A stretch of 64,000 bases of DNA from an uncultured Gammaproteobacteria bacterium (GTDB taxonomy: Bacteria > Patescibacteriota > Microgenomatia > UBA10105 > UBA927): assembly GCA_964527425.1 (NCBI GenBank), contig CAZGOA010000006.1, positions 13,928-77,927 on the forward strand, in the 5' to 3' direction. Position 1 is the first letter of the stretch, and every line of letters starts with the position of its first letter. This document shows positions 42,364 through 60,338 of this stretch, piece by piece. The translations under genes were made by a program, and so were the position numbers. The notes under the pieces are model-generated. The model saw nothing but the letters and a program-made list of their open reading frames with translations, ran no database searches and was not told the DNA's origin.

Positions 42364-43062
42364 TCATTTTTTCATATCTTTATACAACCGTATCATTTCT
42401 TTAATAGTTACAACGATCATAGTTGGGTCACCACCCTTAGGAAATCCACCAATTCGTGAATGATACCGAAATCCAACGTCTGTAAATTTTGCTCCCATGT
42501 TCCATGCTTTATAGATAACTTCTGGTTGTATAAGAGCGCTTCTGTCGAGTGCAGTGATTTCTATTTGATCGAGAATTTTTTTCTTCCATAAAATTGCTGT
42601 AGATATTTCACGAAGTGTTACTCCAAACAATAATCTATACATCATATGAAATATAAATGAATTTAACTTACGGGTAATTGGTTCTGGATTGCTATTCCTG
42701 AATCCAACTACTACATCCACGTCTTTGGTTTTACTAATAAATAGAGGGAGAACATCCATTGATACTTGACCATCTGCTGGAGCTAAAAAAATCCATTCGT
42801 TTCGTGCTTTTTTATAACAGCTTTTAATTGCTCCAGAAAAGCCTTTGTTTTCGGCATGCCTTACTATTGTAATAGTTGGATGTTGTTTTGCTGCATTCTT
42901 CATAATGTCATATGTGTGGTCTGTAGATCCATCATCAACTAACAGTAATTCAAATTTTTCACTTACTTGAGGGCCGATTTGCAGAGCACTGTTAATTACA
43001 GTTTGAATAGACGCTTCTTCGTTAAAGGCGGGAATGGATATTGTAAGAGATGATACTTTCAT
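42364..43062 (-). CDS. GT2 polyprenyl-phosphate sugar synthase (DPM1/GtrB-like, soluble-sized)
   Basis: 232 aa. The GT-A motifs ISIPAFNEE...LLLVDDGSTD and a DxD-like region are present. There is no C-terminal TM. Confidence 0.7.
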   Translation of the reverse strand: MKVSSLTISIPAFNEEASIQTVINSALQIGPQVSEKFELLLVDDGSTDHTYDIMKNAAKQHPTITIVRHAENKGFSGAIKSCYKKARNEWIFLAPADGQVSMDVLPLFISKTKDVDVVVGFRNSNPEPITRKLNSFIFHMMYRLLFGVTLREISTAILWKKKILDQIEITALDRSALIQPEVIYKAWNMGAKFTDVGFRYHSRIGGFPKGGDPTMIVVTIKEMIRLYKDMKK

Positions 43063-43065
43063 GAG

Positions 43066-43527
43066 TTATTTATTAAGTATTCGTGCAGGATTTCCAACTA
43101 CAGTTGTCTGGGGAGGAACATCTTTTGTGACAACACTTCCTGCTCCAACCATTGCTCCTTCACCTATTGTTACTCCGCATCGTATAGTTGCTCCAGCACC
43201 AATTGCTGCACGTGTTTTAACGACTGTTTTTTCTACAATCCAGTCGCTGGGTTGTTTTAAATCACCGGTTTCTGATACTGCTGCTGGAAAACGGTCATTG
43301 GTAAAGGTGACATTCGGTCCTATAAATACGCCATCTTCTATGACGACGCCCTCAGGTATGAAAACAAAGGGTTCTATTTTTACTCTATTACCGATAATGA
43401 CAGTAGGTTTTATCTCTACAAACGTTCCGATTTTACAGTCATTGCCAATAGTACATCCATAAATATTTACTAATTCAGGATGAAATATACTGGTATTTTT
43501 GCCAATGATTGCCGATTTATGAACCAT
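43066..43527 (-). CDS. Left-handed beta-helix (hexapeptide-repeat) sugar N-acetyltransferase
   Basis: 153 aa. Tandem hexapeptide repeats ([LIV]GxxxxI) run throughout. The size and pattern are like amino-sugar-nucleotide N-acetyltransferases (QdtC/WxcM/PglD-like). Confidence 0.7.
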   Translation of the reverse strand: MVHKSAIIGKNTSIFHPELVNIYGCTIGNDCKIGTFVEIKPTVIIGNRVKIEPFVFIPEGVVIEDGVFIGPNVTFTNDRFPAAVSETGDLKQPSDWIVEKTVVKTRAAIGAGATIRCGVTIGEGAMVGAGSVVTKDVPPQTTVVGNPARILNK

Positions 43528-44961: not shown

Positions 44962-46596
44962 TTATTGCTGTTTCACTTTGTAGACTGTAACATCAGAATT
45001 TGTGAATATGGATTCTAAGATAGTAGGATAAAGAGTTGTTGTGTTAGAAAATGATTTTTCATCCGGTCCCCAAAATACATGAGTAATATGTTCTTTTTGC
45101 AGTAATTCTCGTGCATCTTTATCGGAAAGCTGTGCTTTATAAAAATGTTCAGCTATCCATCGTCTTTCAAGCCAATCGGTAAACCCATGTCCTCCTCCAA
45201 TATATACTGATACTGGTCCAAACGCAGGTAACATTTCTCCAAAATATTCTTTTACCATTACATTACTCTGTTGGGGCAGGTTTTTCATAAACAGTACTCC
45301 CTGCCAGGTTTCTTTCGTTGGATAGATATTTATCCAAAAGTTTTCTTGAGCTGTATATATTTGTTTGGTATATTGCCAGGTAAAAAATGTAGAAATGAGA
45401 ATGAGAGTAATGGTCAATATAAATCCTACTGATTTTCGTACTGTCGAGGGAAAGATAGATAATAAGTGCCATATTCCAATAGTACTGAGTATTCCAGCAG
45501 GTGCGTAACCGTGCAGATCAACAAGCCGAAAATTTGCAAATGGAAACCACGACAAATGACTAATAGAAATTAAACCTATTGGAAATAGTAACCAGCTTAA
45601 TGAAAGGATAAAAGAGGTCCACAATTTCGTGGACATTTGCTTATAGCGAATAATACTTGCCCCAATAGCGGTAATTATAAAAGGAACATAGAGCAGTAAA
45701 GAATTTACATATTGGTTGATGACTACACTGTGCTGCATCCATGACTTTTCTTCAGCTGTCCATTCTGTCCAGGGACTCCCTTTACTAAATTCTACTTTTA
45801 ATAATAGGGCGGCAAGTATTATTCCAATAAAAGCTGAAACTAGGATGAGTGTGTAATATTTCCAATGGGTTTTCTTTTTAATAAGAAGAAATAGAAATGC
45901 AATACCTGACATGGCAAAGTAGGGAACGATAAAAGATGGAAGCACTGTCGTTGCCCAGAACCCAAGCAGAAACAGTAATACTGACTGAAGTATCCATAGT
46001 TTTTTCTTGGTACTTGGGTTAAATAGGCAATAGAGTATGAATCCGAAAAATAAAAACCCAAAGGCGTCTCCCCAGGTGTGATGAGGAAGAGAAAATCGTC
46101 GTTCAAATAATATATGAACATCCCACGCTGGTACTAATTGAAAGAGGCCATTTTTTAGTGAACTAAATGATGGACTTGTTTCTAAACCAACAGCTAAGAT
46201 GGTTGCAACAGTTGCCCATCTGGATGGAAATAATTGTTTAGCTAGGAAATATAAACAGAATGCACTACTTATTACCCCTGTTAATCGTAATAGTTGGTAC
46301 ATGTCTACTGGATCAATGGAAAAAAGTGAAGCTATTTTTCCAGCGACAACAAAAAAAAGCTGTGCATAAACGATTGGTGTTTCTCTGGTGGTATGAGTGT
46401 CTTTTATTCCCCAGCTTCCGTCTTTAGCTTGTCTTATCATCGAAGGATAATAAAAATTTTTCCCTAATACATTGTATGTTCTGCCTTCAGGAGCTATTGT
46501 GTATGGTCTGTTGCTTACGGATAAAAAATATATACTTTGAAAGATCAGTACAATAATGACAAACAGTATTGGATGAGAACGGATAAGTTTTAACAT
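44962..46596 (-). CDS. Polytopic membrane protein, paralog-family member 2
   Basis: 544 aa. The loop-1 motif is FYYPSMIRQAKDGSWGIKDTHTTRETPIVYAQLFFVVAGKI. Confidence 0.5.
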   Translation of the reverse strand: MLKLIRSHPILFVIIVLIFQSIYFLSVSNRPYTIAPEGRTYNVLGKNFYYPSMIRQAKDGSWGIKDTHTTRETPIVYAQLFFVVAGKIASLFSIDPVDMYQLLRLTGVISSAFCLYFLAKQLFPSRWATVATILAVGLETSPSFSSLKNGLFQLVPAWDVHILFERRFSLPHHTWGDAFGFLFFGFILYCLFNPSTKKKLWILQSVLLFLLGFWATTVLPSFIVPYFAMSGIAFLFLLIKKKTHWKYYTLILVSAFIGIILAALLLKVEFSKGSPWTEWTAEEKSWMQHSVVINQYVNSLLLYVPFIITAIGASIIRYKQMSTKLWTSFILSLSWLLFPIGLISISHLSWFPFANFRLVDLHGYAPAGILSTIGIWHLLSIFPSTVRKSVGFILTITLILISTFFTWQYTKQIYTAQENFWINIYPTKETWQGVLFMKNLPQQSNVMVKEYFGEMLPAFGPVSVYIGGGHGFTDWLERRWIAEHFYKAQLSDKDARELLQKEHITHVFWGPDEKSFSNTTTLYPTILESIFTNSDVTVYKVKQQ

Positions 46597-46605: not shown

Positions 46606-48201
46606 TTATTTTAGTATTACTTTTGTAACACTGATTGAATCCATTTCAAAGACTTTCTGAAAATACGGCAATGTATTATATTTAGAATCGTTAAATGGAA
46701 TAGTCTCGTATCCCCAAATGATATAATCAACTTTTAACGAATCTAATACATTGTACACCTCCTCATTTGTTAAGTAATTGTTATAAAAGAGTCCGATTGT
46801 ATGTTTTTTTTCATCGTAGTAAGTGGTATTTCCATTGTGTCCTATAATTACTTTATTGTGAGAGATTGCTGGTATTGTAGAACTTAACGCTTCAGGTGCG
46901 AGGATAACACTCCGATATTCTGTTTTTGTTCTTAAAAAATGATAGACAGGAGTCATGGTAGTTATGAGTCTTGCAGTATTCGTATAATGAATATTTGGGT
47001 ATGAATATTCCAGGAGATTAGTGAGAAACGGGGGTACGGCAAATACTATACAGAATATGGCAAACATACTCGCAATAACATTTCGAAATCTAAAGGGAAT
47101 TATTGTACACTTTGAAAGTGTATAAGCAGATAATAATGCAAGAGGAATATGTTGATAGGTTTGAAATAATCTAATTCCTCCAGTAGGTATACCAATATTT
47201 GGCATATAAAATAATCCAATAGGAAGTAAACCCCATGCAATGAGAAAACGAGTTTGTACATTTTTCCAGTTTGAAGGTACCCAGAGTGATAAAAAAAACG
47301 GTATGAATAATGGTCCTAGTGCCAGTAAGTAATTCGGCAACGAAACCGCAGGTGGAGACCAAACCATGGTATCTGCATTAGCAGTCGAAGCATTCTGCCA
47401 CACATTGGTTAGTAAATATCGGTTATATACAATACTTGGGGCTGAAGCAATGATGGCAGTTAAACAATGAAAGAGCAATATCAGTGTTTGTTTCCTATTA
47501 AATAGAACTGCAGTTACTGATGTGAAGATAAAAAAATAGATAAGAAATATGACAACATAGGGATGGAGAAACGAAAGAAATATAAAACTTGTGAAGGTAA
47601 TCGTTAGTGAAGTAATAGTAAATGACAATGATGGCAAGCGCAGCCACAGCAAAAGTATCATTACTGAAGCAATATAATGATGAGGAGGAATGTGGATAAA
47701 TTTTTTTATAGCATTAAACCAATTAGAATATGTCTCTACATCTACGGCTTTGGTAATGTCATTGGCAATTAGATAATATACGCTTGTACTCGTTGTCCAA
47801 AGTACAAGACCGATATATTTAAAAGAATTTTTAATTAGTGTAAAAAAACTAAAAGTGACAAAGAAAATAAGTATAATAATTGCAAAAAATCTAGCTATTG
47901 TATACACATGAAACGGACTGATATTGAATGGAGAAGAAAGTAGGCCAAGTATATTGTAATGTGGCTGTAACAGCATGGGTGGAAAATTTTGTTCAGAGTA
48001 TTGGTTGTGGAAAAGCAATCTCCCTTCCTGTCCTGATTTAATCATCCATGCGTATTGCATTAAATCCATCGGATAGGGAGAAGGGAACCCATATTCAGTT
48101 GGTAATGATTGTGTATTGCTATACACAATATACATATATGCGTTTGTTACTACTGCAAATGCAATCATAACAAGCGATGTTATGATGTATGATCTCCTCA
48201 T
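46606..48201 (-). CDS. Polytopic membrane protein, paralog-family member 3
   Basis: 531 aa. The loop-1 motif is DLMQYAWMIKSGQEGRLLFHNQYSEQNFPPMLLQPHYNILGLL. Confidence 0.5.
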   Translation of the reverse strand: MRRSYIITSLVMIAFAVVTNAYMYIVYSNTQSLPTEYGFPSPYPMDLMQYAWMIKSGQEGRLLFHNQYSEQNFPPMLLQPHYNILGLLSSPFNISPFHVYTIARFFAIIILIFFVTFSFFTLIKNSFKYIGLVLWTTSTSVYYLIANDITKAVDVETYSNWFNAIKKFIHIPPHHYIASVMILLLWLRLPSLSFTITSLTITFTSFIFLSFLHPYVVIFLIYFFIFTSVTAVLFNRKQTLILLFHCLTAIIASAPSIVYNRYLLTNVWQNASTANADTMVWSPPAVSLPNYLLALGPLFIPFFLSLWVPSNWKNVQTRFLIAWGLLPIGLFYMPNIGIPTGGIRLFQTYQHIPLALLSAYTLSKCTIIPFRFRNVIASMFAIFCIVFAVPPFLTNLLEYSYPNIHYTNTARLITTMTPVYHFLRTKTEYRSVILAPEALSSTIPAISHNKVIIGHNGNTTYYDEKKHTIGLFYNNYLTNEEVYNVLDSLKVDYIIWGYETIPFNDSKYNTLPYFQKVFEMDSISVTKVILK

Positions 48202-48274
48202 AAAGTAAATATTAGAAAATTTAGGTACAAACAGTGTTGTATAACTCTATATTTTATATTATAGTTTGAGGACT

Positions 48275-49063
48275 ATGAAGACAATTATTTTATGCGGTGG
48301 ATTAGGATATAGATTAAAAGAAGAAACAGAATTTAAACCTAAACCTATGGTTTCTATTGGGAATAAACCGATGTTGTGGCATATTATGAAAATATATGCT
48401 GCGTATGGATTTAATGAGTTTATTATCGCATTAGGTTATAAAGGAGATTGTATAAAGGATTATTTTCTTCAACAGAAATATTTTCTTCATGATTTTACAC
48501 TCAAAACTAAAAGCGGAGTTACAAAAATATATAAAGGGAATGGAAACGCTGCTCGTGTTGATAATTTTTCTATTACGTTTGTAGATACAGGACTCGAGAC
48601 GCTGCCTGGAGAACGTATTCTTCGATGTAGAGAATTTATCCCAAATACAGATGAGCAATTTATGGTTACGTATGGAGATGGAGTATCGACTATTAATATT
48701 AAGAATTTAATTGCATTTCATAATAAGCAAGGTACGATAGGAACAATAACCGGTGTACATCCAAGAACAAAATTTGGAATGGTGAAGGTGAATACTCATG
48801 GTTTAGTAACGAACTTTATTGAAAAACCAGTGTTAAAAAATGATTGGGTAAATGGTGGATTTATGGTTTTTAAAAAAGAGTTTTTTGAGTACTTACGAGT
48901 TGGGGAAATGGAACATGAGGCAATAAAGCGATTAATTGCAAAAAAACAATTATCGTTATTTATTCATGAAGAATTTTGGCATGCTATGGACACCTATGTT
49001 GATGTGGAAAATTTAAATTCCTTATGGTATGCAAACCCACCATGGAAAGTGTGGAGTGACTAA
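48275..49063 (+). CDS. rfbF: Glucose-1-phosphate cytidylyltransferase
   Basis: The N-terminus MKTIILCGGLGYRLKEETEFKPKPMVSIGNKPMLWHIMKIY is the classic RfbF/DdhA signature. The ORF-track start at 48266 is a TTG, so the ATG at 48275 is preferred. Confidence 0.85.
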   Translation: MKTIILCGGLGYRLKEETEFKPKPMVSIGNKPMLWHIMKIYAAYGFNEFIIALGYKGDCIKDYFLQQKYFLHDFTLKTKSGVTKIYKGNGNAARVDNFSITFVDTGLETLPGERILRCREFIPNTDEQFMVTYGDGVSTINIKNLIAFHNKQGTIGTITGVHPRTKFGMVKVNTHGLVTNFIEKPVLKNDWVNGGFMVFKKEFFEYLRVGEMEHEAIKRLIAKKQLSLFIHEEFWHAMDTYVDVENLNSLWYANPPWKVWSD

Positions 49064-49064
49064 T

Positions 49065-50054
49065 ATGAAATCTTATAAACAATCATTTCCATATAAGTCG
49101 GTATTAGTCACTGGAGGAACAGGGTTTGTTGGTAGCCATCTTGTTGAAACCTTAATCGACAAACACATTCAAGTCATTGTTCCATATCGCAGTATTGATT
49201 ATGCTTCATATTTTTATAAAAAAGGATTGGAGAAAAAAGTAACTTTGGTGCCTTGCGATATAAAATCGAGAGAGCAAGTGCTGGATGTAGTTGGTAAGTA
49301 TGAAGTTTCTTTTATTTATCATCTTGCAGCTCAACCAATTGTTACGACTGCATTTTATAATCCTGTAGAAACATTACTTACAAATATTATGGGGACGGTC
49401 TATTTATTGGAAGCAGTCAAAGCACTATCACACGTTAAAGGTATTATTGTCGCTTCTTCTGATAAAGCATATGGAATGACAAAAAAAGAATATACAGAAG
49501 ATTCTCCATTGAGAGGGTTACATCCGTATGATGTTTCAAAATCTTCCTGTGATTTAATTGCACAAACATATGCAACTACGTATGATTTACCAGTAATAGT
49601 AACTAGATTTGGCAATATTTATGGTGAAGGTGACCGAAATATGAACAGAGTGATACCTGGTATTATTCAATCTATGTTGCGAAAAGAAGAGTTTATCATC
49701 AGAAGTGATGGAACATACGTACGGGAATATTTATATGTAAAAGACGTGGTGAATGGGTATATTGCTTTAGCAGAAAAATTTAAAGACGTAGTAGGCGAAG
49801 CGTTCAATTTTGGTACTTCTTACAGACGTTCTGTTATAGAGTTAGTTCATGATGTTGAAAAAATACTTAATGTAAAAGTGCCCTTTAAAATTGCCAATAC
49901 TGCAAAGAAAGAAATTCCATTTCAAGCGCTTAATTGGGATAAAGCAAAAAGCAAGCTTTTATGGAAACCAACTCATACGCTCTCTCAGGTTTTGCCGGCA
50001 ATAGTTGAATGGTACTCACATTACAATTCGTATGAGAATTTTGTTACTAGCTAA
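49065..50054 (+). CDS. rfbG: CDP-glucose 4,6-dehydratase
   Basis: This is an extended SDR. It has VLVTGGTGFVGSHL and the catalytic YDVSK, and it is syntenic with rfbF. The ATG lies 2 nt after the rfbF stop. Confidence 0.8.
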   Translation: MKSYKQSFPYKSVLVTGGTGFVGSHLVETLIDKHIQVIVPYRSIDYASYFYKKGLEKKVTLVPCDIKSREQVLDVVGKYEVSFIYHLAAQPIVTTAFYNPVETLLTNIMGTVYLLEAVKALSHVKGIIVASSDKAYGMTKKEYTEDSPLRGLHPYDVSKSSCDLIAQTYATTYDLPVIVTRFGNIYGEGDRNMNRVIPGIIQSMLRKEEFIIRSDGTYVREYLYVKDVVNGYIALAEKFKDVVGEAFNFGTSYRRSVIELVHDVEKILNVKVPFKIANTAKKEIPFQALNWDKAKSKLLWKPTHTLSQVLPAIVEWYSHYNSYENFVTS

Positions 50055-51471
50055 TAATTGGGTGGGGTGGGAGATAACAAAATTTCTTTCATCAGACACA
50101 GATGTTGATATTGTTGGACTTGGAATTCACGCACCTTCTAAACAAAAATATACCAAGTATATTCTTCAATCAGTTAATTTACCAAAGTCGAAAATTTTAT
50201 TAGGATCTACATTTAAACAATCAACAACCATTGAACGTATCAGACGATTAAAACCAGATCTAATAATCAGCGCATTTTGGGGGTATATCTTAACAAAAGA
50301 TATTATTGCTATTCCGACCAAAGGAAGTATCAACTTTCATCCAGGATATCTACCAACCAATCGAGGAATGAACCCTAATGTATGGCCGTTTATTGATAAC
50401 ACTCCCGCAGGAGTAACTATTCATTATGTTGATGAAGGTATTGATACAGGAGACATTATTGCTAGACGGAAAGTTCCTATTACTCCTTACGATACAGCAG
50501 AATCAATATATGAAAAAACAATGGCGGATATTGTTGAATTGTTTAAAGAAATATGGCCGAACATAAAAAAAGGCACTGCTCCTCGTATAAATCAGAAAAC
50601 ATTACCAGAAATATCAACGCATCATTATGCTCAAGATATTGAGTCTATTAATACTATAGATGTAGATAAAACGTATACTGGTCAACAACTTATCAATTTA
50701 CTTAAAGCAAGAAGTTATCAGGACAAGTTATTTTTATCCTATACGGATAAAGGTGATCAAGTATACCTTAGTGTACAGTTATACTCTCCAAAAAAATTAC
50801 CGGTCAATACCAAATCTGAGTATCAAAAGTATGTAGAGTATGCGTTAAAGTCATATAAAGAACCATATAGACCGTTAATAATTTCAGTACAAAATAACTT
50901 AAAAATTAAGTTAAAGCCATTTACAAGAAAAGATATAGATGATGAACAACTCGTTCAGATACTAACTAGATGGAGAAAAAAAGCCCAACCATTTTTCCCA
51001 AGTACATTTCGTGTAACCAATGAGAGGACAAAAAAATGGCTCCAATCAGAACTAATAAATAAAAACGATAGAATACTCTTTCTAATTTACTTGCAAGATC
51101 GAAAAACTCCCTTAGGACATGTTGGACTGTATCGATTTGAATGGGATTCATATTCGTGTCAAATCGATAATGTCATAAAAGGTATCAACAGGAAAGAAAC
51201 TAAAGGTATTATGACAATGGCAATACATGAATTAGGTGAATGGGCATTGAATCATCTTGGTGTTCGTACTTTAACATTATATGTCTTTGAAGATAATGAA
51301 AAAGCAGTCAATTTATATACACGCTGCGGATTCATTATAAAAAAAAGAATTCCTCAGCGATTTGAAAAACTAAACAGTCAGGAATTTCACTGGGTCAATG
51401 ATGATCGAATTTCGATAATGAAACCTGAGAGAGTATTGTTGTATATGGTCAAATATCTTTCTAAGGGATAG
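50030..51471 (+). CDS. Fusion protein: formyltransferase domain (ArnA-N/Fmt-like) and C-terminal GNAT acetyltransferase
   Basis: The N-terminal ~200 aa carry the formyl_trans_N core (HPGYLPTNRGMNPNVWPFID...GVTIHYVDEGIDTGDII). The C-terminal ~170 aa have a GNAT fold with the acetyl-CoA motif (GHVGLY...ETKGIMTMAI...LYTRCGF). Confidence 0.7.
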
Positions 51472-53641
51472 TCGTTTCATACAAACTAAAATCATAATCT
51501 GATTTTACTAATTTGCTGTATGGTTGTAATTTGGACCATAGTGCAGGATATGCATGTTTTGTTTCCCAATACGGAGAATAAAATTCTTTTTCATTGATAA
51601 ATACATAAAACGTTGAACCTCTTGCTATCTGTAAAGCATCTTCAATTTGTTCTTCACTAACGATTAAACTGCGTATGAAGGTATACGGTAAAGCTGGTTT
51701 TAAATGCAAGGCTGCGATTAAATCAATACTATTATCAAACAACACTATCTTAGAATTTTTAGGAATACTTGATAAGAAAACATATTGTTCTGATTGTTTT
51801 ACATCCCATTGTTTTAATCTGGTATGCATAATTGCAAAAATTTCTGATGTTGTATGGATAGGATTTTTCCAATATTCAACAATTAATAAGCCATTTCTAA
51901 AGGTTGCCAGCAACAGAATAAATCCGAATATGTATGTTACAACTCTGGGTAATATATGCTTATCCTTATACTGGTTTTCAATTATGTGTACTACCATCGT
52001 CATAAGTAGAATAGTAGGAATTAAGATACTGTAGAGCAGAGGAGGGAGTGATCGGCCAAGATAATAAGGAAGCAACGATAACTGTGTAAATGATACATAT
52101 AGTAATCCAATACCAATTTTATGTTGTTTGCTCATTAAATGGAGTCCCAGTACAATACTGATGACAGAAACTATAAAGGGAATAAGCATCATACCCTGTT
52201 TATCTACAGGAACTAAATAAAACCCAGAACTAAATATTTTTATGAACTCATAATACAGAGAAAAATCAGGGAACGTTTGTTTGGTTATGAGAGTAAGAAG
52301 TACAATACTAAATATTGAACCAACTAATGATGTAAGTGTAACTACACTTACTAATCGGAATAATGCAGTTTTTTTACTACTAAAAAATATTGCATAGATA
52401 CATATGCTTGCCAGTCCTGATACTGCTATACCAATACCGATTTCGAATGAAAAAAAGAACATAAGGACACTAGCAATAATAAATAAAATGAGAGGTAACT
52501 TTTTAGAATTGTGTATATAAGAAGCAAGAAAATAGAAAGGAAAAATCATAGGACCTAAACGCAGAGGAGTAAAAGCTGGTGCACCAATCAGTGACCATTG
52601 ATCTTCAAAATAAAAAGACCTATTTATTAGCGTATAGTAAACAGCTGTAAAAGTTCCAAGTGCAGAGAGAATATTGTTTTTTGTGATTTTTTTTAAAGTA
52701 ATGTAAAAAAATACATAATATACAAATAAAAATAATAAGGTAACCATTGATGTAAATTCTCTTGAAAGTGGGAGAAAAGGGAATGCTTTTATCCATATCA
52801 GCCAAGGCAATAAATAGATGATTCCGTATTGGCTAATAACATCTACAAATGGTGTGGCACCGGTAATAATATGATATGCAGGCAGAGTCGTAAAAAATAA
52901 ATCACCATAATATCTATCCAGAGTAAGAAATGGTAATAATACTAATACAAGAATGATTATTGTTGCGAATGTGATTATAGGATTAATAAATTTTATTGAA
53001 CGTATGTACTCGAATACCTGTTTTATAGCAGGTTTTATTCCCAACAAAAGGGGTAATACTATAAAAAGATAACTATACTGCATTATGATCTTATCAGGTA
53101 AAATTATGGCTGAAGAATCAATCGTTGGTGGAGAAAAGAGATACACCCCCGCATCTAATTCCAGGAAACCTGGAATAAAATATTTGGCAACCGAAGCGAT
53201 GAATAATAGCTGGGTAGTTTGAGCACTAAATGGTTTTTGTAAGATAAATAATTGAAACACAAGCACTATCATAAACAGGAGATAAAAGCGCATATCAGTT
53301 GCCAGTTGCAGTGGAAAAGGATAATCACCTACAACAAGTAATCCAATAAAGGTGCTCGGGAGAATATACATTGATATTTTTTCTAGAAGAACTCTATTTT
53401 CTGAAGTTGTGAACAAGTAAAGCAGTAATTGAGAAACAAGAATAAATAACGCGACAAGAATAATAAAACAAATATAAAAAAGTACATCTTTTTCTGGTGC
53501 AAAATGTCCGTCTATTAATAACGCGTAGGCTGGTTCTGTAGGAAGGGGAATACGAGAAATAATCAGTGGAGTTAGTATTGAAGAAAAGAAAGACGAAAGA
53601 ACAAACTGCAACGATAAAATAGGTAGAGCAAATAAATTCAT
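51461..53641 (-). CDS. Large polytopic membrane protein (GT-C-like candidate)
   Basis: 726 aa with more than 14 TM helices and a C-terminal ~150-aa soluble domain. No named motif. Confidence 0.4.
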   Translation of the reverse strand: MNLFALPILSLQFVLSSFFSSILTPLIISRIPLPTEPAYALLIDGHFAPEKDVLFYICFIILVALFILVSQLLLYLFTTSENRVLLEKISMYILPSTFIGLLVVGDYPFPLQLATDMRFYLLFMIVLVFQLFILQKPFSAQTTQLLFIASVAKYFIPGFLELDAGVYLFSPPTIDSSAIILPDKIIMQYSYLFIVLPLLLGIKPAIKQVFEYIRSIKFINPIITFATIIILVLVLLPFLTLDRYYGDLFFTTLPAYHIITGATPFVDVISQYGIIYLLPWLIWIKAFPFLPLSREFTSMVTLLFLFVYYVFFYITLKKITKNNILSALGTFTAVYYTLINRSFYFEDQWSLIGAPAFTPLRLGPMIFPFYFLASYIHNSKKLPLILFIIASVLMFFFSFEIGIGIAVSGLASICIYAIFFSSKKTALFRLVSVVTLTSLVGSIFSIVLLTLITKQTFPDFSLYYEFIKIFSSGFYLVPVDKQGMMLIPFIVSVISIVLGLHLMSKQHKIGIGLLYVSFTQLSLLPYYLGRSLPPLLYSILIPTILLMTMVVHIIENQYKDKHILPRVVTYIFGFILLLATFRNGLLIVEYWKNPIHTTSEIFAIMHTRLKQWDVKQSEQYVFLSSIPKNSKIVLFDNSIDLIAALHLKPALPYTFIRSLIVSEEQIEDALQIARGSTFYVFINEKEFYSPYWETKHAYPALWSKLQPYSKLVKSDYDFSLYETTIP

Positions 53642-55337: not shown

Positions 55338-56939
55338 ATGATACATTCTTTTTTTCCTAAGATTACTAGTACGTTTTTGATCATGGTTGTAGTTGTTTGT
55401 ACTATTCTCTTCTCAAATATTATTCCAATATTATCTATTCAGCAAAAACTTCCTGGTGCAGTAGCTTATGGTTTTTTTAAGTCCCATCCTGAAGATTATT
55501 TTCAATATGTTTCAATGATTCGACAAGGCAAGGAGCATAATTCATTATTATTTACTAATCAGTATGATTCAACACAGTTGCGAACGTATTTTATTCAGCC
55601 TTTCTATAATATCGTCGGTGTTGTTACACAATTTCTCCCTTTTGATCAGTTTCAAATTTTTTTTTTAATAAGAATGATATCAGCGTTGTTGTTTTATCTG
55701 GTTTTTTTAGAATTAGTATTTAAAGTATTGTCCCAAAACCGACAACGATTATTTGCTATTCTTTTATTCAGTACTATTACTGCATTTAGTGTTGCTTCTG
55801 TGTGTGAGGGTATAGCTTGCAGAATGGATCCTCAAACATATGCAGGTGCTTATTTTAATGCTTGGTTACGACTGTTAATTTTACCTCCACATCATTACCT
55901 GGCATTGTTGTTGGTTATGAAATTCTTAATACGTATACCTAATCTAAACATATCTTACAGATCTTTATTAATTACTATACTTATGTCTGTTGTTTTAGGA
56001 TTATTACATCCATATATTGCTTCAAGTTTTTTTAGTATATTTTTCATCACTGTTTTTGTGAAAAGTATAGCTAAACGGGCATTTTTAAAAGAACTCACAG
56101 TACATTTATTCATCCTGGGATTTATTGTTGCTTTACTGGCTGTTTATACAAAAATTCAAACAAGATATGAGTTGGGAAGTGTATTTAGATATGTTCAATA
56201 TGAGTATGTTATTGAGTATATAAAAGCGCTTGGAACAGGAAGTTTGCTGTTGGTGTTATCAATGTTTTTTATACGAAAGATAGTAAAACTACCGCATGGT
56301 ATTCCCATGGTAGTATGGGCAATATTTCCTGGTTTAGCCATACTTACTCCTATAATACGAACACTATTAGGAGAATATAGAATTTTTCAGATAATGCAGC
56401 ATATACCAATAAGTATATTAGGAGGATTTGTTTTAGATTACATAATAAAAAAATTCAAGATCATAGGAATCATTACAACAACGGGTCTTTTTTTAGTAAT
56501 ACTGTATATACTCGCCCCTGTGTATCTTATTCATTGGAAGTATATGACAAATCCAGGTAGTGTCGAATTTTTTCAATATAAAATATTTTCAATTGTGAAG
56601 TCCATGGTCCCTTCATTAAACATGACTGGACCAGCATACAAAGTAGTACTCAGTGGAGATATGGTATCGGCTATGTTACCAGCATTAGGACCTTACAGAG
56701 TTGTAAATGCAAGAATAGGGAATACCCCTGATTTGGAGCAGAGCTTAGTGGACGTGCAACAGTTTTATTATGGTCTGCCTGAACAACAATTAATACGATT
56801 TTTTAATACATATCATCCATCAAGTGCTTTATTTGGGATTGATACAGTAACGTTTTCGACTAGTCAGTATACTCATTCACCATATTTTACAGAAACAGCA
56901 CGTATGGGAGAAATATCACTTGTAGAAATTAACCGTTAA
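55338..56939 (+). CDS. Polytopic membrane protein, paralog-family member 4
   Basis: 533 aa. The loop-1 motif is DYFQYVSMIRQGKEHNSLLFTNQYDSTQLRTYFIQPFYNIVGVV. Confidence 0.5.
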   Translation: MIHSFFPKITSTFLIMVVVVCTILFSNIIPILSIQQKLPGAVAYGFFKSHPEDYFQYVSMIRQGKEHNSLLFTNQYDSTQLRTYFIQPFYNIVGVVTQFLPFDQFQIFFLIRMISALLFYLVFLELVFKVLSQNRQRLFAILLFSTITAFSVASVCEGIACRMDPQTYAGAYFNAWLRLLILPPHHYLALLLVMKFLIRIPNLNISYRSLLITILMSVVLGLLHPYIASSFFSIFFITVFVKSIAKRAFLKELTVHLFILGFIVALLAVYTKIQTRYELGSVFRYVQYEYVIEYIKALGTGSLLLVLSMFFIRKIVKLPHGIPMVVWAIFPGLAILTPIIRTLLGEYRIFQIMQHIPISILGGFVLDYIIKKFKIIGIITTTGLFLVILYILAPVYLIHWKYMTNPGSVEFFQYKIFSIVKSMVPSLNMTGPAYKVVLSGDMVSAMLPALGPYRVVNARIGNTPDLEQSLVDVQQFYYGLPEQQLIRFFNTYHPSSALFGIDTVTFSTSQYTHSPYFTETARMGEISLVEINR

Positions 56940-57016: not shown

Positions 57017-57547
57017 TTATTTTGTTTTGGGAAAAAGAATGAAAATTGATAATTGAATGAGTCTTCTGATTTTAAACATGAATGGTATTGTATTAAGGAT
57101 GTAGTCGTTTTTATCCTTTAAAAGAGCATGTTGAGTTTCCAATCTGTTGAGCCGCCGATTAATGATGACTTCTTTGTTATAGAGTTTCTGAAGATTATGT
57201 ACAGTTATTCCTTTTTTATGTTGAGCTATTAATGATAATAATTTAATCGTAATAGATGATTCAGTATAGCTATAGAACGTAAGTAAATAAAACGCTAATA
57301 CGATTAAGTTAATACATAATGAAACACTTGCATAAAACAGTATATTTATCAACGGATATTGAAGTACAACTAAGGTTAATCCAATTAGTAGACAATTCAA
57401 TATTGCGATGAGTATCGCACAAAGTACCAACCAATAATATGATGTCAGTTTATTCGTATATTTCAAAATGAATCGTTGTAAACACAGAAATAAAACACAT
57501 GATACTAAAGTAGTGCTGATTAGAATGATATCCATGTTATCCACCAA
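57017..57547 (-). CDS. Membrane protein with N-terminal TM helices and a C-terminal winged-helix-like domain, paralog A
   Basis: 176 aa. Three or four TM helices are followed by ITVHNLQKLYNKEVIINRRLNRLETQHALLKDKNDYIL, an apparent MarR/PadR-like wHTH. Confidence 0.45.
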   Translation of the reverse strand: MVDNMDIILISTTLVSCVLFLCLQRFILKYTNKLTSYYWLVLCAILIAILNCLLIGLTLVVLQYPLINILFYASVSLCINLIVLAFYLLTFYSYTESSITIKLLSLIAQHKKGITVHNLQKLYNKEVIINRRLNRLETQHALLKDKNDYILNTIPFMFKIRRLIQLSIFILFPKTK

Positions 57548-58046
57548 TAGATAATCCTAAACTTTTACTTATAGAGTAAAAAATGTCCCATATTGTATTA
57601 CCACGCTTGCTAAGTCTATACGTATTGACGTTGGATTTTATTATTATGTTTTTTGACTCCAGACTATCAAGTCGTTTAGTTATTAATAAATCATTAGAAA
57701 AGAGGGAGAAAATATCTTTTTTCGAGAGTATTTTTTTATGTAAAAATGCATCAAAAAGTGTATCAATAGGAGTTTGTCCTTCCTGAAATTGAAAAAAAGA
57801 ATACAGAGTAACAATACTAGATAGTAGTATAAAAAGCATTAAAGAGGTTACAGGAAGCGGAGAGGTATCTGTATGTATTAGTTGATAGTTCGTTGCGTAG
57901 AGAACAACTAATAGTAAAAATGAGACAATAGTAACGAATATACTAACCACAAACGGTTTTACTTGTTTAGAGCATACGCGATAAATAACACTTTGGAGAA
58001 TAAGCGAATTAATAAACATGAGCATGAATAACAGAACTTCATTCAT
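57537..58046 (-). CDS. Membrane protein with N-terminal TM helices and a C-terminal winged-helix-like domain, paralog B
   Basis: 169 aa. Three TM helices are followed by ILSKKDIFSLFSNDLLITKRLDSLESKNIIIKSNVNTYRLSKRG. The gene overlaps paralog A by 11 nt. Confidence 0.45.
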   Translation of the reverse strand: MNEVLLFMLMFINSLILQSVIYRVCSKQVKPFVVSIFVTIVSFLLLVVLYATNYQLIHTDTSPLPVTSLMLFILLSSIVTLYSFFQFQEGQTPIDTLFDAFLHKKILSKKDIFSLFSNDLLITKRLDSLESKNIIIKSNVNTYRLSKRGNTIWDIFYSISKSLGLSIGG

Positions 58047-58071: not shown

Positions 58072-59376
58072 TTAGACCTTTTGGGATTTCATAAACGAGT
58101 GAATTGTATTGACAACATACGAACGCATCGTATTTGTTATACCGGGATATACTCCAATCCAAAACCCATCATTCATGATGCGGTCAGTATTGGTTAATGC
58201 TCCGACGACACGATACTGTTGGTGTTTCATAAATGCAGGATGTTTAAGTAAATTTCCCGCAAACAATCGTCTTGTTGCTATATGGTTTTTTTCAAGAAAG
58301 TCAATTAAATCATTACTTGTAAACGGTGCGGTAGGGGATACTAGTATCATAAAACCAAACCAACTTGGAACTGCCTCATTAAGATGTTTGGTGAAGTTTA
58401 GTAGTGGTTCATACTGTTGTAAATGTTTTTTATAGAATGCAAATGTCTCGTTTCTTCTTTTGATAAAATCTGGAAGTTTTTGAAGTTGAGCTAAGCCTAT
58501 TGCCGCCTGCATATCTGTTAATTTTAGATTATATCCAATTTGTGAATATATGTATTTATGATCATATCCATACGGTAGATTGCCTAATTTCCAGTCAAAT
58601 CTCCGGTTACAGGTATTATCTTTTCCTGTTTTGCACCAGCAGTCTCTGCCCCAATCTCTGAATTGTCTTACGCTTCTGGATACTAAAGAATTATTTGTTA
58701 CGACTGCACCACCTTCTCCCATAGTCATTTGGTGTGCCGGGTAAAATGAATATGTTGCAACATGACCAAATGTGCCTACTGGTTTACCTTGATAGGTTGC
58801 TCCTAATGCATCACAACAATCTTCTACTAACCATAAATTATGCTCTTTACACAAAGAGACTAGTTCTTTAAGCGGCATAGGATTTCCTAAAGCATGCGCC
58901 ATCATTATTGCCTTAGTTTTTGGGCTAATAGCTTTTCGTAGATTTTCTATTGAGACATTCTTTGTGTTTAAATCTACGTCAACAAATACTGGTATAAGTC
59001 TATTTTGGATAATGGGATTAACTGTCGTTGGAAATGACGCAGCAAGTGTAATAACTTCATCACCTGGTTTGAGCGCTTTATCGCCAAACACATCTGATGT
59101 AAGAGCTGATAACGCCAAGAGGTTTGCAGATGAACCAGAATTTGTTAATGATACTAATTTGCATCCACAAATCTTTGAAAATTCACGTTCAAACTGTTGT
59201 GCAAATGCTCCTTCTGTCCACCAACCATCTAAAACAGCTTGTGTGGCATTCATAATTTCTTCATGATCGAAAATCTTTCCAGAGACAGGTACGGTAGATG
59301 ATCCGGCAATAAAACGAGATGGCTTATGATTTTTTTTATAGTATGACGTAATGGATGATGACAATGTTTTGTTCAT
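58072..59376 (-). CDS. rfbH: CDP-4-dehydro-6-deoxyglucose 3-dehydrase (E1; RfbH/DdhC-like). A PMP-dependent DegT-family enzyme.
   Basis: 434 aa. Near-colinear conservation with RfbH as I remember it: FIAGSSTVPVSGK...LDGWWTEG...NSGSSANLLALSALTS...ALKPGDEVITLAASFPTTVNPIIQNRLIPVFVDVD...EDCCDALGATY...FRDWGRDCWCKTGKDNTCNRRF (Cys cluster)...TDRIMNDGFWIGVYPG. Confidence 0.8.
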   Translation of the reverse strand: MNKTLSSSITSYYKKNHKPSRFIAGSSTVPVSGKIFDHEEIMNATQAVLDGWWTEGAFAQQFEREFSKICGCKLVSLTNSGSSANLLALSALTSDVFGDKALKPGDEVITLAASFPTTVNPIIQNRLIPVFVDVDLNTKNVSIENLRKAISPKTKAIMMAHALGNPMPLKELVSLCKEHNLWLVEDCCDALGATYQGKPVGTFGHVATYSFYPAHQMTMGEGGAVVTNNSLVSRSVRQFRDWGRDCWCKTGKDNTCNRRFDWKLGNLPYGYDHKYIYSQIGYNLKLTDMQAAIGLAQLQKLPDFIKRRNETFAFYKKHLQQYEPLLNFTKHLNEAVPSWFGFMILVSPTAPFTSNDLIDFLEKNHIATRRLFAGNLLKHPAFMKHQQYRVVGALTNTDRIMNDGFWIGVYPGITNTMRSYVVNTIHSFMKSQKV

Positions 59377-60338
59377 AGCATTGAATGCTCAGGTTTTTTG
59401 TCGAGATTAATAGTTTGCTTAATAATAAATCTTGGCCGGGCCTTTACTTCTAAAAAAATTTTAGCCAGATATTCTGCAATGACACTTAAGCTTAATAGCT
59501 GTACACCACCCAAAAACAGCGTTGCTATTAAAACTGTCGGTACACCAGGTGCACGTTGGTTAAAAACTAGTACCAAGAGTAAATTAAGAATAATAAATAA
59601 TATTGACATGATAGTAACAGAAAACCCTAAATAAGAAATCCATAGTAACGGTTGAAACGAGAAGTTTAAGATAATTTGTTTTGCCCACCATAATCCTTTA
59701 AAAAAACTCTCTGTTGATTGACCATGTATACGTGCTTGGCGGACATAGGGTATGCCTATTTGTTTAAATCCAACAAACGCTCTTAAACAGCGGACGAAAT
59801 AATCGTATTCCGGTATCCGTAATAATTCTTTTACAACCTGTTTGCTCATTAACGAGAATTCTCCAGCATCAAGGGGAACAGAAATGTATGCTAGTTTCTT
59901 AAGTAGGTAATAAAACGTTTTATAAGAAAGATTCCAAAAAAATCCATAGCCATCTCTTTTCGTTCTAATTCCGTACACTACATCATATCCAGCTTTCCAG
60001 GTTTGAATAAATGTAGGGATTATCTCAGGTGGATCTTGAATATCACCATGTAATAATACAACTGCATCGCCTGAAGCGTACGTCATACCCGCTAAAAAAC
60101 TTGGTTGAGGAGATCCAAAATTTCGACTCATTTTAATTACTTTAACTCGTTTGTCTTTTTTTGTTAATTTTGTGTAGATTGAATCTGAGTTATCGGTAGA
60201 ATCATTGTCAACAAAAATAATTTCTGGAGAATAATTTTTTAACTTTTTAAATATATTCACAATTCTTGAATACATTTCTTGAATATTCTCTTGTTCGTTG
60301 TAGCAGGTGATTACAATTGATAGTATTTCTCGTTTCAT
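59373..60338 (-). CDS. GT2 polyprenyl-phosphate glycosyltransferase with C-terminal TM helices (ArnC/GtrB-like)
   Basis: 321 aa. The N-terminal GT-A has SIVITCYNEQENI...IIFVDNDSTDNS. Two C-terminal TM helices are present. The size and topology are identical to ArnC-type lipid-linked sugar synthases. Confidence 0.75.
   Translation of the reverse strand: MKREILSIVITCYNEQENIQEMYSRIVNIFKKLKNYSPEIIFVDNDSTDNSDSIYTKLTKKDKRVKVIKMSRNFGSPQPSFLAGMTYASGDAVVLLHGDIQDPPEIIPTFIQTWKAGYDVVYGIRTKRDGYGFFWNLSYKTFYYLLKKLAYISVPLDAGEFSLMSKQVVKELLRIPEYDYFVRCLRAFVGFKQIGIPYVRQARIHGQSTESFFKGLWWAKQIILNFSFQPLLWISYLGFSVTIMSILFIILNLLLVLVFNQRAPGVPTVLIATLFLGGVQLLSLSVIAEYLAKIFLEVKARPRFIIKQTINLDKKPEHSML

What the first reader, a model, noticed from the sequence alone, without database searches (positions are those of the whole stretch)
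50030..51471. Formyltransferase-GNAT fusion protein
One polypeptide carries two domains. The N-terminal N10-formyl-THF-dependent formyltransferase domain has the catalytic region HPGYLPTNRGMNPNVWP and the substrate-binding DTGDII. The C-terminal GNAT acetyltransferase domain has an acetyl-CoA-binding motif. The protein lies directly after rfbF-rfbG. This could be a bifunctional sugar N-formyl/N-acetyl transferase, giving alternative N-acylation of the same amino sugar. Alternatively the GNAT half may be a pseudo-enzyme or substrate-recruitment domain. I am not aware of this architecture in characterised sugar pathways.
Basis: seen in the sequence. Interest (0 to 1): 0.6.

Follow-up and report, generated by a model that had tools for sequence, protein, structure and literature searches.

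The report
Fused sugar N-formyl/N-acetyl transferase
One bacterial protein joins two enzymes that can each cap an amino group on an unusual cell-surface sugar, one with a formyl group and the other with an acetyl group; the fusion is real and recurs in several lineages, but nobody has characterised it.

Summary
A 479-aa ORF (ATG 50032 to stop 51471) encodes a complete two-domain sugar N-formyltransferase (residues 1-252; Asn101/His103/Asp138 invariant) joined directly to a complete PseH-like GNAT (residues ~255-479; CoA-contact Asn422/Ala425 and general-acid Tyr429 invariant).

It is not a sequencing artefact. The identical ORF lies on 20 contigs from at least 8 sequencing runs, and 11 further protein clusters (39-78% identical) carry the same two domains, two of them in the reverse order.

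Context explains it. A cassette conserved in candidate-phyla bacteria and Gammaproteobacteria holds RfbF, RfbG, RfbH, a ThDP enzyme (split transketolase or YerE-like), a DegT aminotransferase and a polyprenyl-phosphate GT2. The slot after the aminotransferase holds the formyltransferase alone, this GNAT alone, or both fused.

The best reading is a bifunctional N-acylase that formylates or acetylates the same sugar amine (inferred, not shown). One caveat: a Glu that is invariant in 27 stand-alone GNATs is Gln here, so the acetyltransferase half may be weakened in this lineage.

This is a new variant of known enzyme kinds, of moderate interest. The sugar made by the cassette may be the more novel item.

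The parts
50032..51471 (+). Fusion gene, 479 aa: sugar N-formyltransferase joined to a PseH-like GNAT
50032..50787 (+). Residues 1-252: Formyl_trans_N core plus the small N_formyltrans_C dimerisation domain; catalytic Asn101, His103, Asp138
   Evidence: Pfam. PDB sequence hits: PseJ 6ci2 at 8.5e-27, plus WbtJ, VioF, Rv3404c. Foldseek target TM-scores 0.81-0.87 to WbtJ, Rv3404c, VioF, WbkC and others. Triad invariant.
50794..51468 (+). Residues 255-479: complete GNAT protein, including the N-terminal helix found in stand-alone homologs; Asn422, Ala425, Tyr429 invariant; Gln377 in place of the family Glu
   Evidence: Pfam; PseH 4xpk at 1.6e-5; family alignments; profile search, 368 hits at or below 1e-30; AF2 pLDDT 90.6 with SpeG/RimL-class fold
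48266..49063 (+). RfbF-like glucose-1-phosphate cytidylyltransferase
   Evidence: TIGR02623 at 5.8e-78 (261.9 bits, below the 300 cutoff); 59-73% identical orthologs in L001, L002, L004, L007, L016
49029..50054 (+). RfbG-like CDP-glucose 4,6-dehydratase
   Evidence: TIGR02622 at 2.5e-59 (below cutoff); orthologs in cassette loci
58072..59376 (-). RfbH / E1, CDP-4-keto-6-deoxyglucose 3-dehydrase
   Evidence: NF011936 at 660.8 bits (cutoff 423); PDB 3bcx at 2.4e-148, with the active-site His in place of Lys and the C-X-C-X7-C iron-sulfur motif kept
59373..60338 (-). GT2 polyprenyl-phosphate glycosyltransferase (ArnC/PgfS/GtrB-like)
   Evidence: Full-length matches to PgfS (1.5e-71) and ArnC (4.4e-41), both below cutoff; 61-64% identical orthologs in L002, L003, L008, L016
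60335..61456 (-). DegT1 sugar aminotransferase, the conserved partner that makes the amine to be acylated
   Evidence: Pfam DegT at 1.2e-108; best PDB hit perosamine synthase 3bn1 at 3.4e-93; lies immediately upstream of the acylase in L001-L003, L004, L007, L008, L026
61466..63207 (-). Split transketolase (TK_N 62398-63207, TK_C 61466-62401), the cassette's ThDP enzyme
   Evidence: Pfam and NCBIfam; PDB split-chain transketolase 6yak at 1.1e-59; conserved next to the acylase in nearly all loci and replaced by a YerE-like enzyme in L016 and L017
63302..64000 (-). Second DegT-family aminotransferase (PLP-Lys motif SFHPRK); runs off the window edge; not part of the conserved cassette
46606..48201 (-). 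531-aa polytopic membrane protein, candidate GT-C-type transferase; paralogs at 44962-46596, 55338-56939 and 39895-41694
   Evidence: No Pfam hit; homologs beside the cassette in L016 (33%, 5e-55), L008, L002, L003
53730..55334 (+). PMT_2 (GT-C) membrane glycosyltransferase
   Evidence: Pfam PMT_2 at 9.7e-11
57017..58046 (-). Two small membrane proteins (176 and 169 aa) downstream of rfbH; flippase role is only a guess
   Evidence: No family hits; weak homologs as an adjacent pair in L016

Best explanation
The gene encodes a genuine, selectively maintained end-to-end fusion of two complete enzymes. One is a folate-dependent sugar N-formyltransferase of the WbtJ/VioF/WbkC structural type. The other is an acetyl-CoA-dependent, PseH-like GNAT N-acetyltransferase. 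It performs the N-acylation step of a conserved CDP-sugar cassette.

Proposed pathway: RfbF, RfbG and RfbH make CDP-4-keto-3,6-dideoxyglucose. A ThDP enzyme (a split transketolase here) probably adds a two-carbon keto branch. DegT1 installs an amine. The fusion protein caps that amine with formyl (from N10-formyl-THF, using Asn101/His103/Asp138) or with acetyl (from acetyl-CoA, with Tyr429 as general acid). An ArnC/GtrB-like GT2 then loads the sugar onto polyprenyl phosphate, for transfer outside the membrane by GT-C-type enzymes.

Shown: domain identities, catalytic residues, recurrence of the fusion, and cassette conservation. Inferred: both domains act on the same amine, the identity of the sugar, and the lipid-carrier route.
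For: Domains and triad.

Fusion is real: the identical ORF lies on 20 contigs from at least 8 runs, and 11 further clusters are 39-78% identical.

The two domains are linked by several independent arrangements: FT-GNAT in 10 clusters, GNAT-FT in P0009/P0012, the same GNAT fused to the DegT aminotransferase in either order (P0053, P0158, P0174, P0245, P0189, P0147), and a separate GNAT plus PseJ-type FT fusion, P0067.

The slot beside the aminotransferase (between DegT1 and the transketolase in most loci) holds FT alone (L004, L005, L007, L008, L028), GNAT alone (L014, L015, L026; L016 and L017 with a YerE-like enzyme) or the fusion (window, L001-L003, L030).

Only one aminotransferase is conserved, because RfbH is a true dehydrase and DegT2 has no orthologs in the fused loci.

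The fused GNAT keeps every invariant residue of 27 stand-alone members. It matches H. pylori PseH Asn131/Ala134/Tyr138 in spacing and SSAT Asn133/Tyr140 by hhalign. FT and GNAT cores are equally conserved between the window protein and P0002, at 82% and 80%.

Precedent: PseH and PseJ respectively acetylate and formylate the same amine, giving Pse5Ac7Ac or Pse5Ac7Fo (that both act on the same amine is from my own knowledge).
Against: No enzymology exists for any family member. Position 377, a strand-beta4 Glu invariant in stand-alone GNATs, is Gln in the window protein and P0002 and Ala in P0010. By spacing it may correspond to SSAT Glu92, whose Gln mutant loses activity, but hhalign did not cover that region. 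All five amino-acid differences in the close strain variants P0121 and P0122 lie in the GNAT half, including F322S at an otherwise invariant site. Two enzymes competing for one amine is an odd design, and no regulatory logic is evident. The window has a second aminotransferase (63302-64000). The AF2 inter-domain geometry is undetermined (pTM 0.52). No E3 reductase is encoded in the window.
Confidence: 0.5

Rival explanations
1. The formyltransferase is the working enzyme. In this lineage the GNAT half is catalytically weakened or dead and serves as a substrate- or CoA-binding, oligomerisation or regulatory module.
For: Gln377 replaces the family-invariant beta4 Glu in the window protein and P0002, and Ala replaces it in P0010. 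All 5 strain-level substitutions lie in the GNAT half, including F322S at an invariant site. The GNAT halves diverge faster than the FT halves (34.6% versus 52.6% mean pairwise identity). FT-only cassettes function without any GNAT.
Against: All other invariant GNAT residues are kept, including the CoA contacts and the general-acid Tyr429. The GNAT core is as conserved as the FT core between the window protein and P0002, 80% versus 82%. Nine of 12 fusions keep the Glu. H. pylori PseH itself has no titratable side-chain positioned to act as a general base and is proposed to use a water held by Ser78, so loss of the Glu need not abolish activity. The AF2 model of the domain is confident (pLDDT 90.6).
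Confidence: 0.2
2. Both domains are active but act on different positions. One option is a second amine, made by the extra aminotransferase at 63302-64000 or by one encoded elsewhere. Another is a hydroxyl of the ThDP-installed branch. Either way the product would carry both formyl and acetyl groups.
For: The window encodes a second true DegT aminotransferase next to the transketolase, and L001 has extra DegT genes. In every case seen where the two co-occur they are fused, which would suit sequential action on one molecule.
Against: DegT2 has no ortholog in L001-L003, and L002 and L003 have a single aminotransferase within +/-10 kb. FT-only and GNAT-only cassettes with otherwise similar gene sets argue that each enzyme alone completes the pathway. 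The RfbH-like gene is a dehydrase, not an aminotransferase.
Confidence: 0.2
3. The GNAT half acts on something unrelated to the sugar pathway (a protein, polyamine or antibiotic), and the fusion is an accident of gene order.
For: The closest structural neighbours are the polyamine and protein acetyltransferases SpeG and RimL. The PseH model score is below cutoff (37.7 versus 93.1).
Against: In every stand-alone context examined this GNAT subfamily sits beside the DegT aminotransferase, is also found fused to it, and is embedded in the cassette in every locus large enough to show it. Independent fusions in both orders are not expected by accident.
Confidence: 0.05
4. Artefact: a sequencing or assembly error joined two separate genes.
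For: None found.
Against: The identical 479-aa ORF lies on 20 contigs from at least 8 independent runs. Full-length homologs extend down to 39% identity. The junction aligns with the native N-terminus of stand-alone GNATs.
Confidence: 0.01

Closest known systems
PseJ / PseH pair of pseudaminic acid biosynthesis
   Same: PseJ is the best solved sequence relative of the FT core (6ci2, 8.5e-27). C. jejuni PseH is the best solved sequence relative of the GNAT half (4xpk, 1.6e-5). In that pathway a formyltransferase and a GNAT are alternative cappers of one nucleotide-sugar 4-amine, giving Pse5Ac7Fo or Pse5Ac7Ac (and my own knowledge).
   Different: PseJ and PseH are separate proteins, and PseJ lacks the N_formyltrans_C domain. 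Here the context is CDP-based (RfbF/G/H) with a ThDP enzyme and has no PseB/PseG/PseI. The PseH model score is below cutoff (37.7 versus 93.1).
Two-domain sugar 4-N-formyltransferases: WbtJ, VioF, Rv3404c, WbkC
   Same: Same fold over about 250 residues (target TM-scores 0.81-0.87). Same Pfam pair, PF00551 plus PF18216. Same Asn-His-Asp triad. Each is paired with a DegT aminotransferase; here the aminotransferase is perosamine-synthase-like.
   Different: Those enzymes have no GNAT and use dTDP- or GDP-sugars. The NCBIfam equivalog for the dTDP-Qui4N formyltransferase is not reached (99.4 versus 238 bits).
ArnA and the Arn pathway (ArnB, ArnC, ArnT)
   Same: A formyltransferase domain fused to a second enzyme of the same sugar pathway. 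The overall logic also matches: an aminotransferase, N-formylation, a GT2 that loads polyprenyl phosphate, then a GT-C transferase.
   Different: ArnA's partner domain is an SDR decarboxylase acting earlier in the pathway, not a second N-acylase. No ArnD-type deformylase was found in the window.
QdtF / FdtF, sugar N-formyltransferases with extra C-terminal domains
   Same: A formyltransferase core followed by an additional C-terminal domain (PDB 4xd1 and 5uij among the hits).
   Different: As I recall, their extra domains are non-catalytic (an ankyrin repeat in QdtF). Here the extra domain is a complete GNAT enzyme.
YerE/ErwE acyl-branched 3,6-dideoxyhexose pathways (yersiniose, erwiniose)
   Same: RfbF/G/H supply CDP-4-keto-3,6-dideoxyglucose, and a ThDP enzyme sits in the cluster. 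L016 and L017 carry a YerE-like enzyme, and L016 also has the ErwI/ErwJ-like pair.
   Different: In place of a YerF-like reductase there is an aminotransferase plus an N-acylase. In the window the ThDP enzyme is a split transketolase, whose role is inferred only from its position.

Membership tests
Sugar N-formyltransferase (Formyl_trans_N + N_formyltrans_C) | PF00551 and PF18216 both above Pfam gathering scores | tested here: met
   86.6 bits (cutoff 26.1) and 30.6 bits (cutoff 25.8)
Sugar N-formyltransferase (Formyl_trans_N + N_formyltrans_C) | Catalytic Asn-His-Asp triad | tested here: met
   Asn101, His103 and Asp138 are invariant in 12 fusion homologs
Sugar N-formyltransferase (Formyl_trans_N + N_formyltrans_C) | Fold matches solved sugar N-formyltransferases over both subdomains | tested here: met
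   AF2 model (pLDDT mostly 85-95 over residues 1-200, lower in the C-terminal subdomain) against 4nv1, 6v33, 4pzu, 5vyr, 4yfy: target TM-scores 0.81-0.87, E about 1e-16
Sugar N-formyltransferase (Formyl_trans_N + N_formyltrans_C) | Formyl transfer from N10-formyl-THF to a nucleotide-sugar amine | not testable with these tools
   Needs enzymology
dTDP-4-amino-4,6-dideoxyglucose formyltransferase (VioF equivalog, NF005755) | Score above the NCBIfam curated cutoff | tested here: not met
   99.4 bits versus cutoff 238
PseJ (pseudaminic acid 7-N-formyltransferase) | Single-domain FT within a Pse cluster (PseB/C/G/I/F) | tested here: not met
   PseJ is the best PDB sequence hit (8.5e-27), but the protein carries the extra N_formyltrans_C domain, and its neighbours are RfbF/G/H, a transketolase and a GT2, with no Pse genes
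GNAT superfamily | Pfam GNAT model above cutoff and a GNAT fold | tested here: met
   PF13302 at 52 bits (cutoff 25.4) and PF00583 at 38.4 bits (cutoff 20.7). The AF2 model of the GNAT half has pLDDT 90.6 and pTM 0.87, and Foldseek matches SpeG/RimL at E about 1e-10 with target TM-scores 0.69-0.79.
GNAT superfamily | Acetyl-CoA contacts and the general-acid Tyr | tested here: met
   Asn422, Ala425 and Tyr429 are invariant. They share the spacing of H. pylori PseH Asn131/Ala134/Tyr138, and Asn422/Tyr429 align with SSAT Asn133/Tyr140.
GNAT superfamily | General base for deprotonating the amine | tested here: inconclusive
   The family-invariant beta4 Glu is Gln377 here. Its equivalence to SSAT Glu92 rests on spacing only, and general bases are not conserved across GNATs.
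PseH (TIGR03585 equivalog) | Score above the curated cutoff | tested here: not met
   37.7 bits versus cutoff 93.1. Stand-alone relatives score 20-45 bits. This is a distinct PseH-like subfamily with no curated model.
ArnA-type bifunctional formyltransferase | FT domain fused to an SDR decarboxylase domain | tested here: not met
   The partner domain is a GNAT. The ArnA model scores 89 bits against a cutoff of 777, over the FT region only.
YerE-type C-4 acyl-branched 3,6-dideoxyhexose pathway | RfbF, RfbG and E1 (RfbH) supplying CDP-4-keto-3,6-dideoxyglucose | tested here: met
   The E3 reductase is absent from the window but lies adjacent to the cassette in Vibrio L015.
YerE-type C-4 acyl-branched 3,6-dideoxyhexose pathway | A ThDP-dependent carboligase that branches the 4-keto sugar | tested here: inconclusive
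   The window has a split transketolase, not a YerE homolog. A YerE-like enzyme occupies the equivalent place in L016 and L017. No activity data exist.

The most novel reading that the evidence does not exclude
The fusion marks a previously undescribed, widely distributed sugar pathway found in candidate-phyla bacteria, a cultured Vibrio and other Gammaproteobacteria. In it, CDP-4-keto-3,6-dideoxyglucose receives a ThDP-dependent C-4 keto branch, from a split transketolase or a YerE-like enzyme. The branch is transaminated and the new amine is capped by interchangeable or fused formyl and acetyl modules. The sugar is then exported on polyprenyl phosphate for GT-C transfer. The product would be a new class of N-acylated, branched amino-3,6-dideoxyhexoses, with the formyltransferase-GNAT fusion generating formyl/acetyl microheterogeneity on the cell surface.
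Probability: 0.3. Interest if true: 0.7.

Novelty: new variant of a known kind. Interest (0 to 1): 0.5.

Why it matters
N-acyl groups on bacterial surface amino sugars determine antigenicity and recognition by phages and hosts. A single protein able to install either formyl or acetyl on one amine would be a compact way to diversify a glycan, and a useful tool for chemoenzymatic synthesis of N-acyl sugar variants. The swap-or-fuse pattern gives an unusually clean natural experiment showing that folate-dependent and CoA-dependent N-acylases are interchangeable modules. The surrounding cassette points to an uncharacterised sugar. That sugar can be tested directly in a cultured organism, Vibrio sp. 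MEBiC08052, as well as in the uncultured lineages where surface glycobiology is almost unknown.

Tried and rejected
1. A word-indexed homolog search with the GNAT half alone returned nothing, not even the query's own protein. The exhaustive profile search and a profile query replaced it.
The full-length alignments seeded only on formyltransferase motifs.
3. Literature searches for a characterised formyltransferase-GNAT fusion, or for a transketolase acting on nucleotide keto-sugars, found nothing relevant. The searched library excludes most subscription journals, and the original PseJ paper was not read.
4. I first noted the DegT at 63302-63829 as a fragment or pseudogene. That was wrong: it reads through to the window edge and has the PLP lysine.
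5. The hypothesis of two amines with one acylation each was tested by looking for orthologs of that second aminotransferase in the fused loci. None were found.
6. Mapping Gln377 to the SSAT general base Glu92 by profile alignment failed, because only the alpha3-beta5-alpha4 region aligned.
7. The full-length AF2 model gives no reliable inter-domain geometry (pTM 0.52), so substrate channelling could not be assessed.
8. A search for an ArnD-like deformylase or an E3 reductase in the window found neither.
9. Neighbour-joining trees suggest repeated fusion or fission, but they have no bootstrap support.
10. The organism was not identified. GC content is 34.9%, and the closest relatives are Gottesman-, Roizman- and Levybacteria.
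Full report
OBSERVATION. The window has an ORF at 50005 (TTG) or 50032 (ATG) to 51471 on the + strand. All homologs begin M-R/K-I/V-x-L-L-A-N, so the start is ATG 50032 and the protein has 479 aa. Pfam finds Formyl_trans_N at 63-164 (E 2.2e-24), N_formyltrans_C at 202-251 (E 2.7e-7, above cutoff) and Acetyltransf_3 at 293-434 (E 1.6e-13). The gene overlaps by 23 nt the end of a CDP-glucose 4,6-dehydratase-like gene (49029-50054), which follows an RfbF-like cytidylyltransferase (48266-49063).

IS THE FUSION REAL? Yes. The identical 479-aa protein is encoded on 20 contigs from at least eight sequencing runs, differing by only 1-2 nucleotides. Eleven further protein clusters carry the same two enzymes in 470-495 aa, at 78% and 39-50% identity. 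Two of them, P0009 and P0012, have the opposite order, with the GNAT first. The GNAT part begins at the position corresponding to the N-terminus of stand-alone homologs, so two whole proteins are joined with almost no linker.

THE FORMYLTRANSFERASE HALF. Asn101, His103 and Asp138 are invariant. The best solved sequence relative is PseJ (6ci2, 8.5e-27), followed by the formylation domain of the gramicidin synthetase LgrA and the sugar N-formyltransferases. An AF2 model (mean pLDDT 84.7) superposes over about 250 residues on WbtJ, the P. congelans and Shewanella enzymes, Rv3404c, WbkC and VioF, with target TM-scores of 0.81-0.87. It is therefore a complete two-domain sugar N-formyltransferase. 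It does not reach NCBI's cutoff for the dTDP-Qui4N enzyme (99 versus 238 bits).

THE GNAT HALF. The best solved sequence relative is C. jejuni PseH (4xpk, 1.6e-5), but the PseH model scores below cutoff (37.7 versus 93.1). A profile of the 12 GNAT halves, searched against 1.84 billion representative proteins, finds 368 relatives at or below 1e-30. Most are stand-alone proteins of 200-235 aa, and some are fused to a DegT aminotransferase in either order. None reaches a curated family cutoff, so this is a distinct PseH-like subfamily.

The fused domain keeps every residue that is invariant in 27 stand-alone members. Asn422, Ala425 and Tyr429 have the spacing of H. pylori PseH Asn131, Ala134 and Tyr138, which are the pantetheine contacts and the general acid. 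Asn422 and Tyr429 also align with SSAT Asn133 and Tyr140. A GNAT-only AF2 model is confident (pLDDT 90.6, pTM 0.87) and matches GNATs of the SpeG/RimL class.

There is one exception. The Glu on strand beta4 (S/T-C-E-I-D-N-V) is invariant in the stand-alone proteins but is Gln377 in the window protein and P0002, and Ala in P0010. By spacing alone it could correspond to SSAT Glu92, a water-mediated general base whose Gln mutant is inactive. This mapping is unproven, and PseH itself has no titratable side-chain positioned to act as a general base.

CONTEXT. On the minus strand, at 58-63 kb, lie the following genes:
- A true E1 3-dehydrase, RfbH. It scores 660 bits against a cutoff of 423 and matches 3bcx at 2.4e-148, with the active-site His and the C-X-C-X7-C iron-sulfur motif kept.
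- An ArnC/PgfS-like GT2.
- The DegT1 aminotransferase, whose best solved relative is perosamine synthase (3.4e-93).
- A split transketolase.
Large polytopic membrane proteins, two of them PMT_2 (GT-C), surround the fusion gene.

The same gene set travels with the fusion in distant homologs. L001 and L002 carry RfbF, RfbG, (GT2), DegT1, FT-GNAT, TK_N, TK_C and an RfbH-like gene. L003 and L030 carry TK_N, TK_C, GT2, DegT1 and GNAT-FT.

THE KEY COMPARISON. The slot beside the aminotransferase (between DegT1 and the transketolase in most loci) is occupied in three ways:
(a) Formyltransferase alone, in two Gammaproteobacteria MAGs, a Gottesmanbacterium, a Roizmanbacterium and L028.
(b) This GNAT alone, in L014, L026 and cultured Vibrio sp. 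MEBiC08052. The Vibrio locus L015 lays out E3, RfbF, RfbG, RfbH, TK_N, TK_C, GNAT, DegT, GtrA, GT2 and a 771-aa membrane protein. L016 and L017 also belong here, with a YerE-like ThDP enzyme replacing the transketolase.
(c) The two fused.
P0053 fuses the GNAT to DegT itself, again next to the transketolase and GT2.

Only one aminotransferase is conserved. RfbH is a dehydrase, and the window's second DegT (63302-64000, a true aminotransferase running off the window edge) has no ortholog in the other fused loci. Across 4 genome loci and 20 metagenome loci carrying this type of formyltransferase, no case of separate adjacent formyltransferase and GNAT genes was seen. Wherever both occur, they are fused.

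By pairwise identity, the formyltransferase halves of the fusions resemble each other (55-60%). Several GNAT halves are closer to stand-alone GNATs (up to 51%) than to other fused GNATs (35-40%), which suggests repeated fusion or fission. The trees supporting this have no bootstrap values.

MECHANISM. The most economical reading is that the formyltransferase and the GNAT are alternative cappers of the amine made by DegT1, and that the fusion carries both activities. The pseudaminic acid pathway gives a precedent: PseH acetylates and PseJ formylates the same 4-amine (and my own knowledge). P0067 is an independent fusion of a GNAT with a PseJ-type formyltransferase.

Downstream, the GT2, the GtrA gene in Vibrio and the GT-C-type proteins indicate a Gtr/Arn-like route through polyprenyl phosphate. 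That route is inferred.

The position of the amine is unresolved. YerE is known to branch CDP-4-keto-3,6-dideoxyglucose at C-4, and such acyl branches can be transaminated. The transketolase and the YerE-like enzyme are positionally equivalent, and L016 also has the ErwI/ErwJ-like pair. These points favour an amine on a C-4 branch. DegT1's similarity to perosamine synthase, and the formyltransferase's resemblance to 4-N-formyltransferases, leave a direct C-4 amine possible.

CAVEATS AND RIVALS. Three observations keep open the possibility that the acetyltransferase half is weakened in this lineage: Gln377, the five strain-level substitutions that all lie in the GNAT half (including F322S at an invariant site), and the faster divergence of the GNAT halves. 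Against that, the GNAT core is as conserved as the formyltransferase core between the window protein and P0002 (80% versus 82%). Action on two different positions cannot be excluded. An artefact is excluded.

NOVELTY. Both enzyme families, and fusions of formyltransferases with other domains (ArnA, QdtF), are known. I found no characterised formyltransferase-GNAT fusion, only automated names such as 'methionyl-tRNA formyltransferase/RimJ/RimL family'. It is a rare architecture: among the 150 best-scoring representatives of this GNAT subfamily, 7 are formyltransferase fusions. I rate it a new variant of a known kind, with moderate interest (0.5). The conserved cassette, which may make an undescribed branched N-acyl amino sugar, could be the more novel finding.

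Noticed in passing
window 63302-64000 (-): A second DegT-family aminotransferase (PLP-lysine motif SFHPRK) sits next to TK_N and reads through to the window edge. The ORF lister shows only a 175-aa piece. It has no ortholog in the other fused loci.
   Followed up: partly
window 51461-53641 (-); L018-L025: The 726-aa membrane protein that converges on the fusion gene is one ORF in the window and in L019. In L018, L020, L021 and L025 it is called as two genes (362 aa and at least 304-337 aa). This suggests population-level disruption or phase-like variation.
   Followed up: no
L027 5851-6678: A stand-alone formyltransferase of this subfamily (P0015, 49% identical to the window's formyltransferase half) lies on a phage-like contig with a D5-type primase, an integrase and many small ORFs. 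It may be a phage gene that modifies the host glycan.
   Followed up: no
L016 6048-11891; L017 145-5648: A Patescibacteria locus carries ErwJ/ErwI-like acetaldehyde dehydrogenase and aldolase genes, a YerE-like ThDP enzyme, the GNAT and a DegT. This is the erwiniose-type branching gene set, with amination and acetylation in place of reduction.
   Followed up: partly
L015 (Vibrio sp. MEBiC08052, KQ947475.1 119164-139802): A cultured isolate carries the complete GNAT-only cassette, including the E3 reductase, GtrA, GT2 and a DUF7024 membrane protein. It would be a tractable organism for identifying the sugar.
   Followed up: partly
window 39895-41694, 44962-46596, 46606-48201, 55338-56939: A paralogous family of 531-599-aa polytopic membrane proteins has no Pfam match. 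Homologs lie beside the cassette in L002, L003, L008 and L016, so they are probably uncatalogued GT-C-like transferases.
   Followed up: partly
window 57017-58046 (-): Two adjacent small membrane proteins (176 and 169 aa) lie downstream of rfbH. Each has a soluble C-terminal part, and weak homologs occur as a pair in L016. A flippase or regulatory role is only a guess.
   Followed up: no
proteins P0033, P0041, P0052, P0067: Relatives of this formyltransferase occur in other fusions: PseG-like plus FT (P0033, P0041), FT plus PseI-like synthase (P0052), and GNAT plus PseJ-type FT (P0067).
   Followed up: partly
proteins P0121, P0122 (strain variants of the window protein): All five amino-acid differences from the window protein lie in the GNAT half: F322S, K424R, N427S and T430K in P0121, and V418I in P0122. 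None lie in the formyltransferase half. F322 is otherwise invariant in the family.
   Followed up: partly
window 42364-43527 (-): An LbH (NeuD/PglB/VioB-type) sugar acetyltransferase and a GT2 lie here. The same acetyltransferase, 57-62% identical, recurs in L002 and L003 together with a GFO_IDH_MocA oxidoreductase. This suggests a second co-travelling amino-sugar pathway.
   Followed up: no
window 35398-37314 (-); 27064-29445 (+): One 638-aa protein combines a weak GT87-like membrane region with a C-terminal NPCBM/NEW2 glycan-binding domain. A second, 793-aa, is a DUF2298 membrane protein. Both add to an unusually dense set of envelope-glycosylation genes.
   Followed up: no
whole window: No Fer2-containing E3 (RfbI/AscD-type) reductase partner for RfbH was found in the window. 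The only FAD/NAD reductase (12698-13402) lacks a ferredoxin domain, so the electron donor for the 3-deoxygenation step is unidentified.
   Followed up: partly
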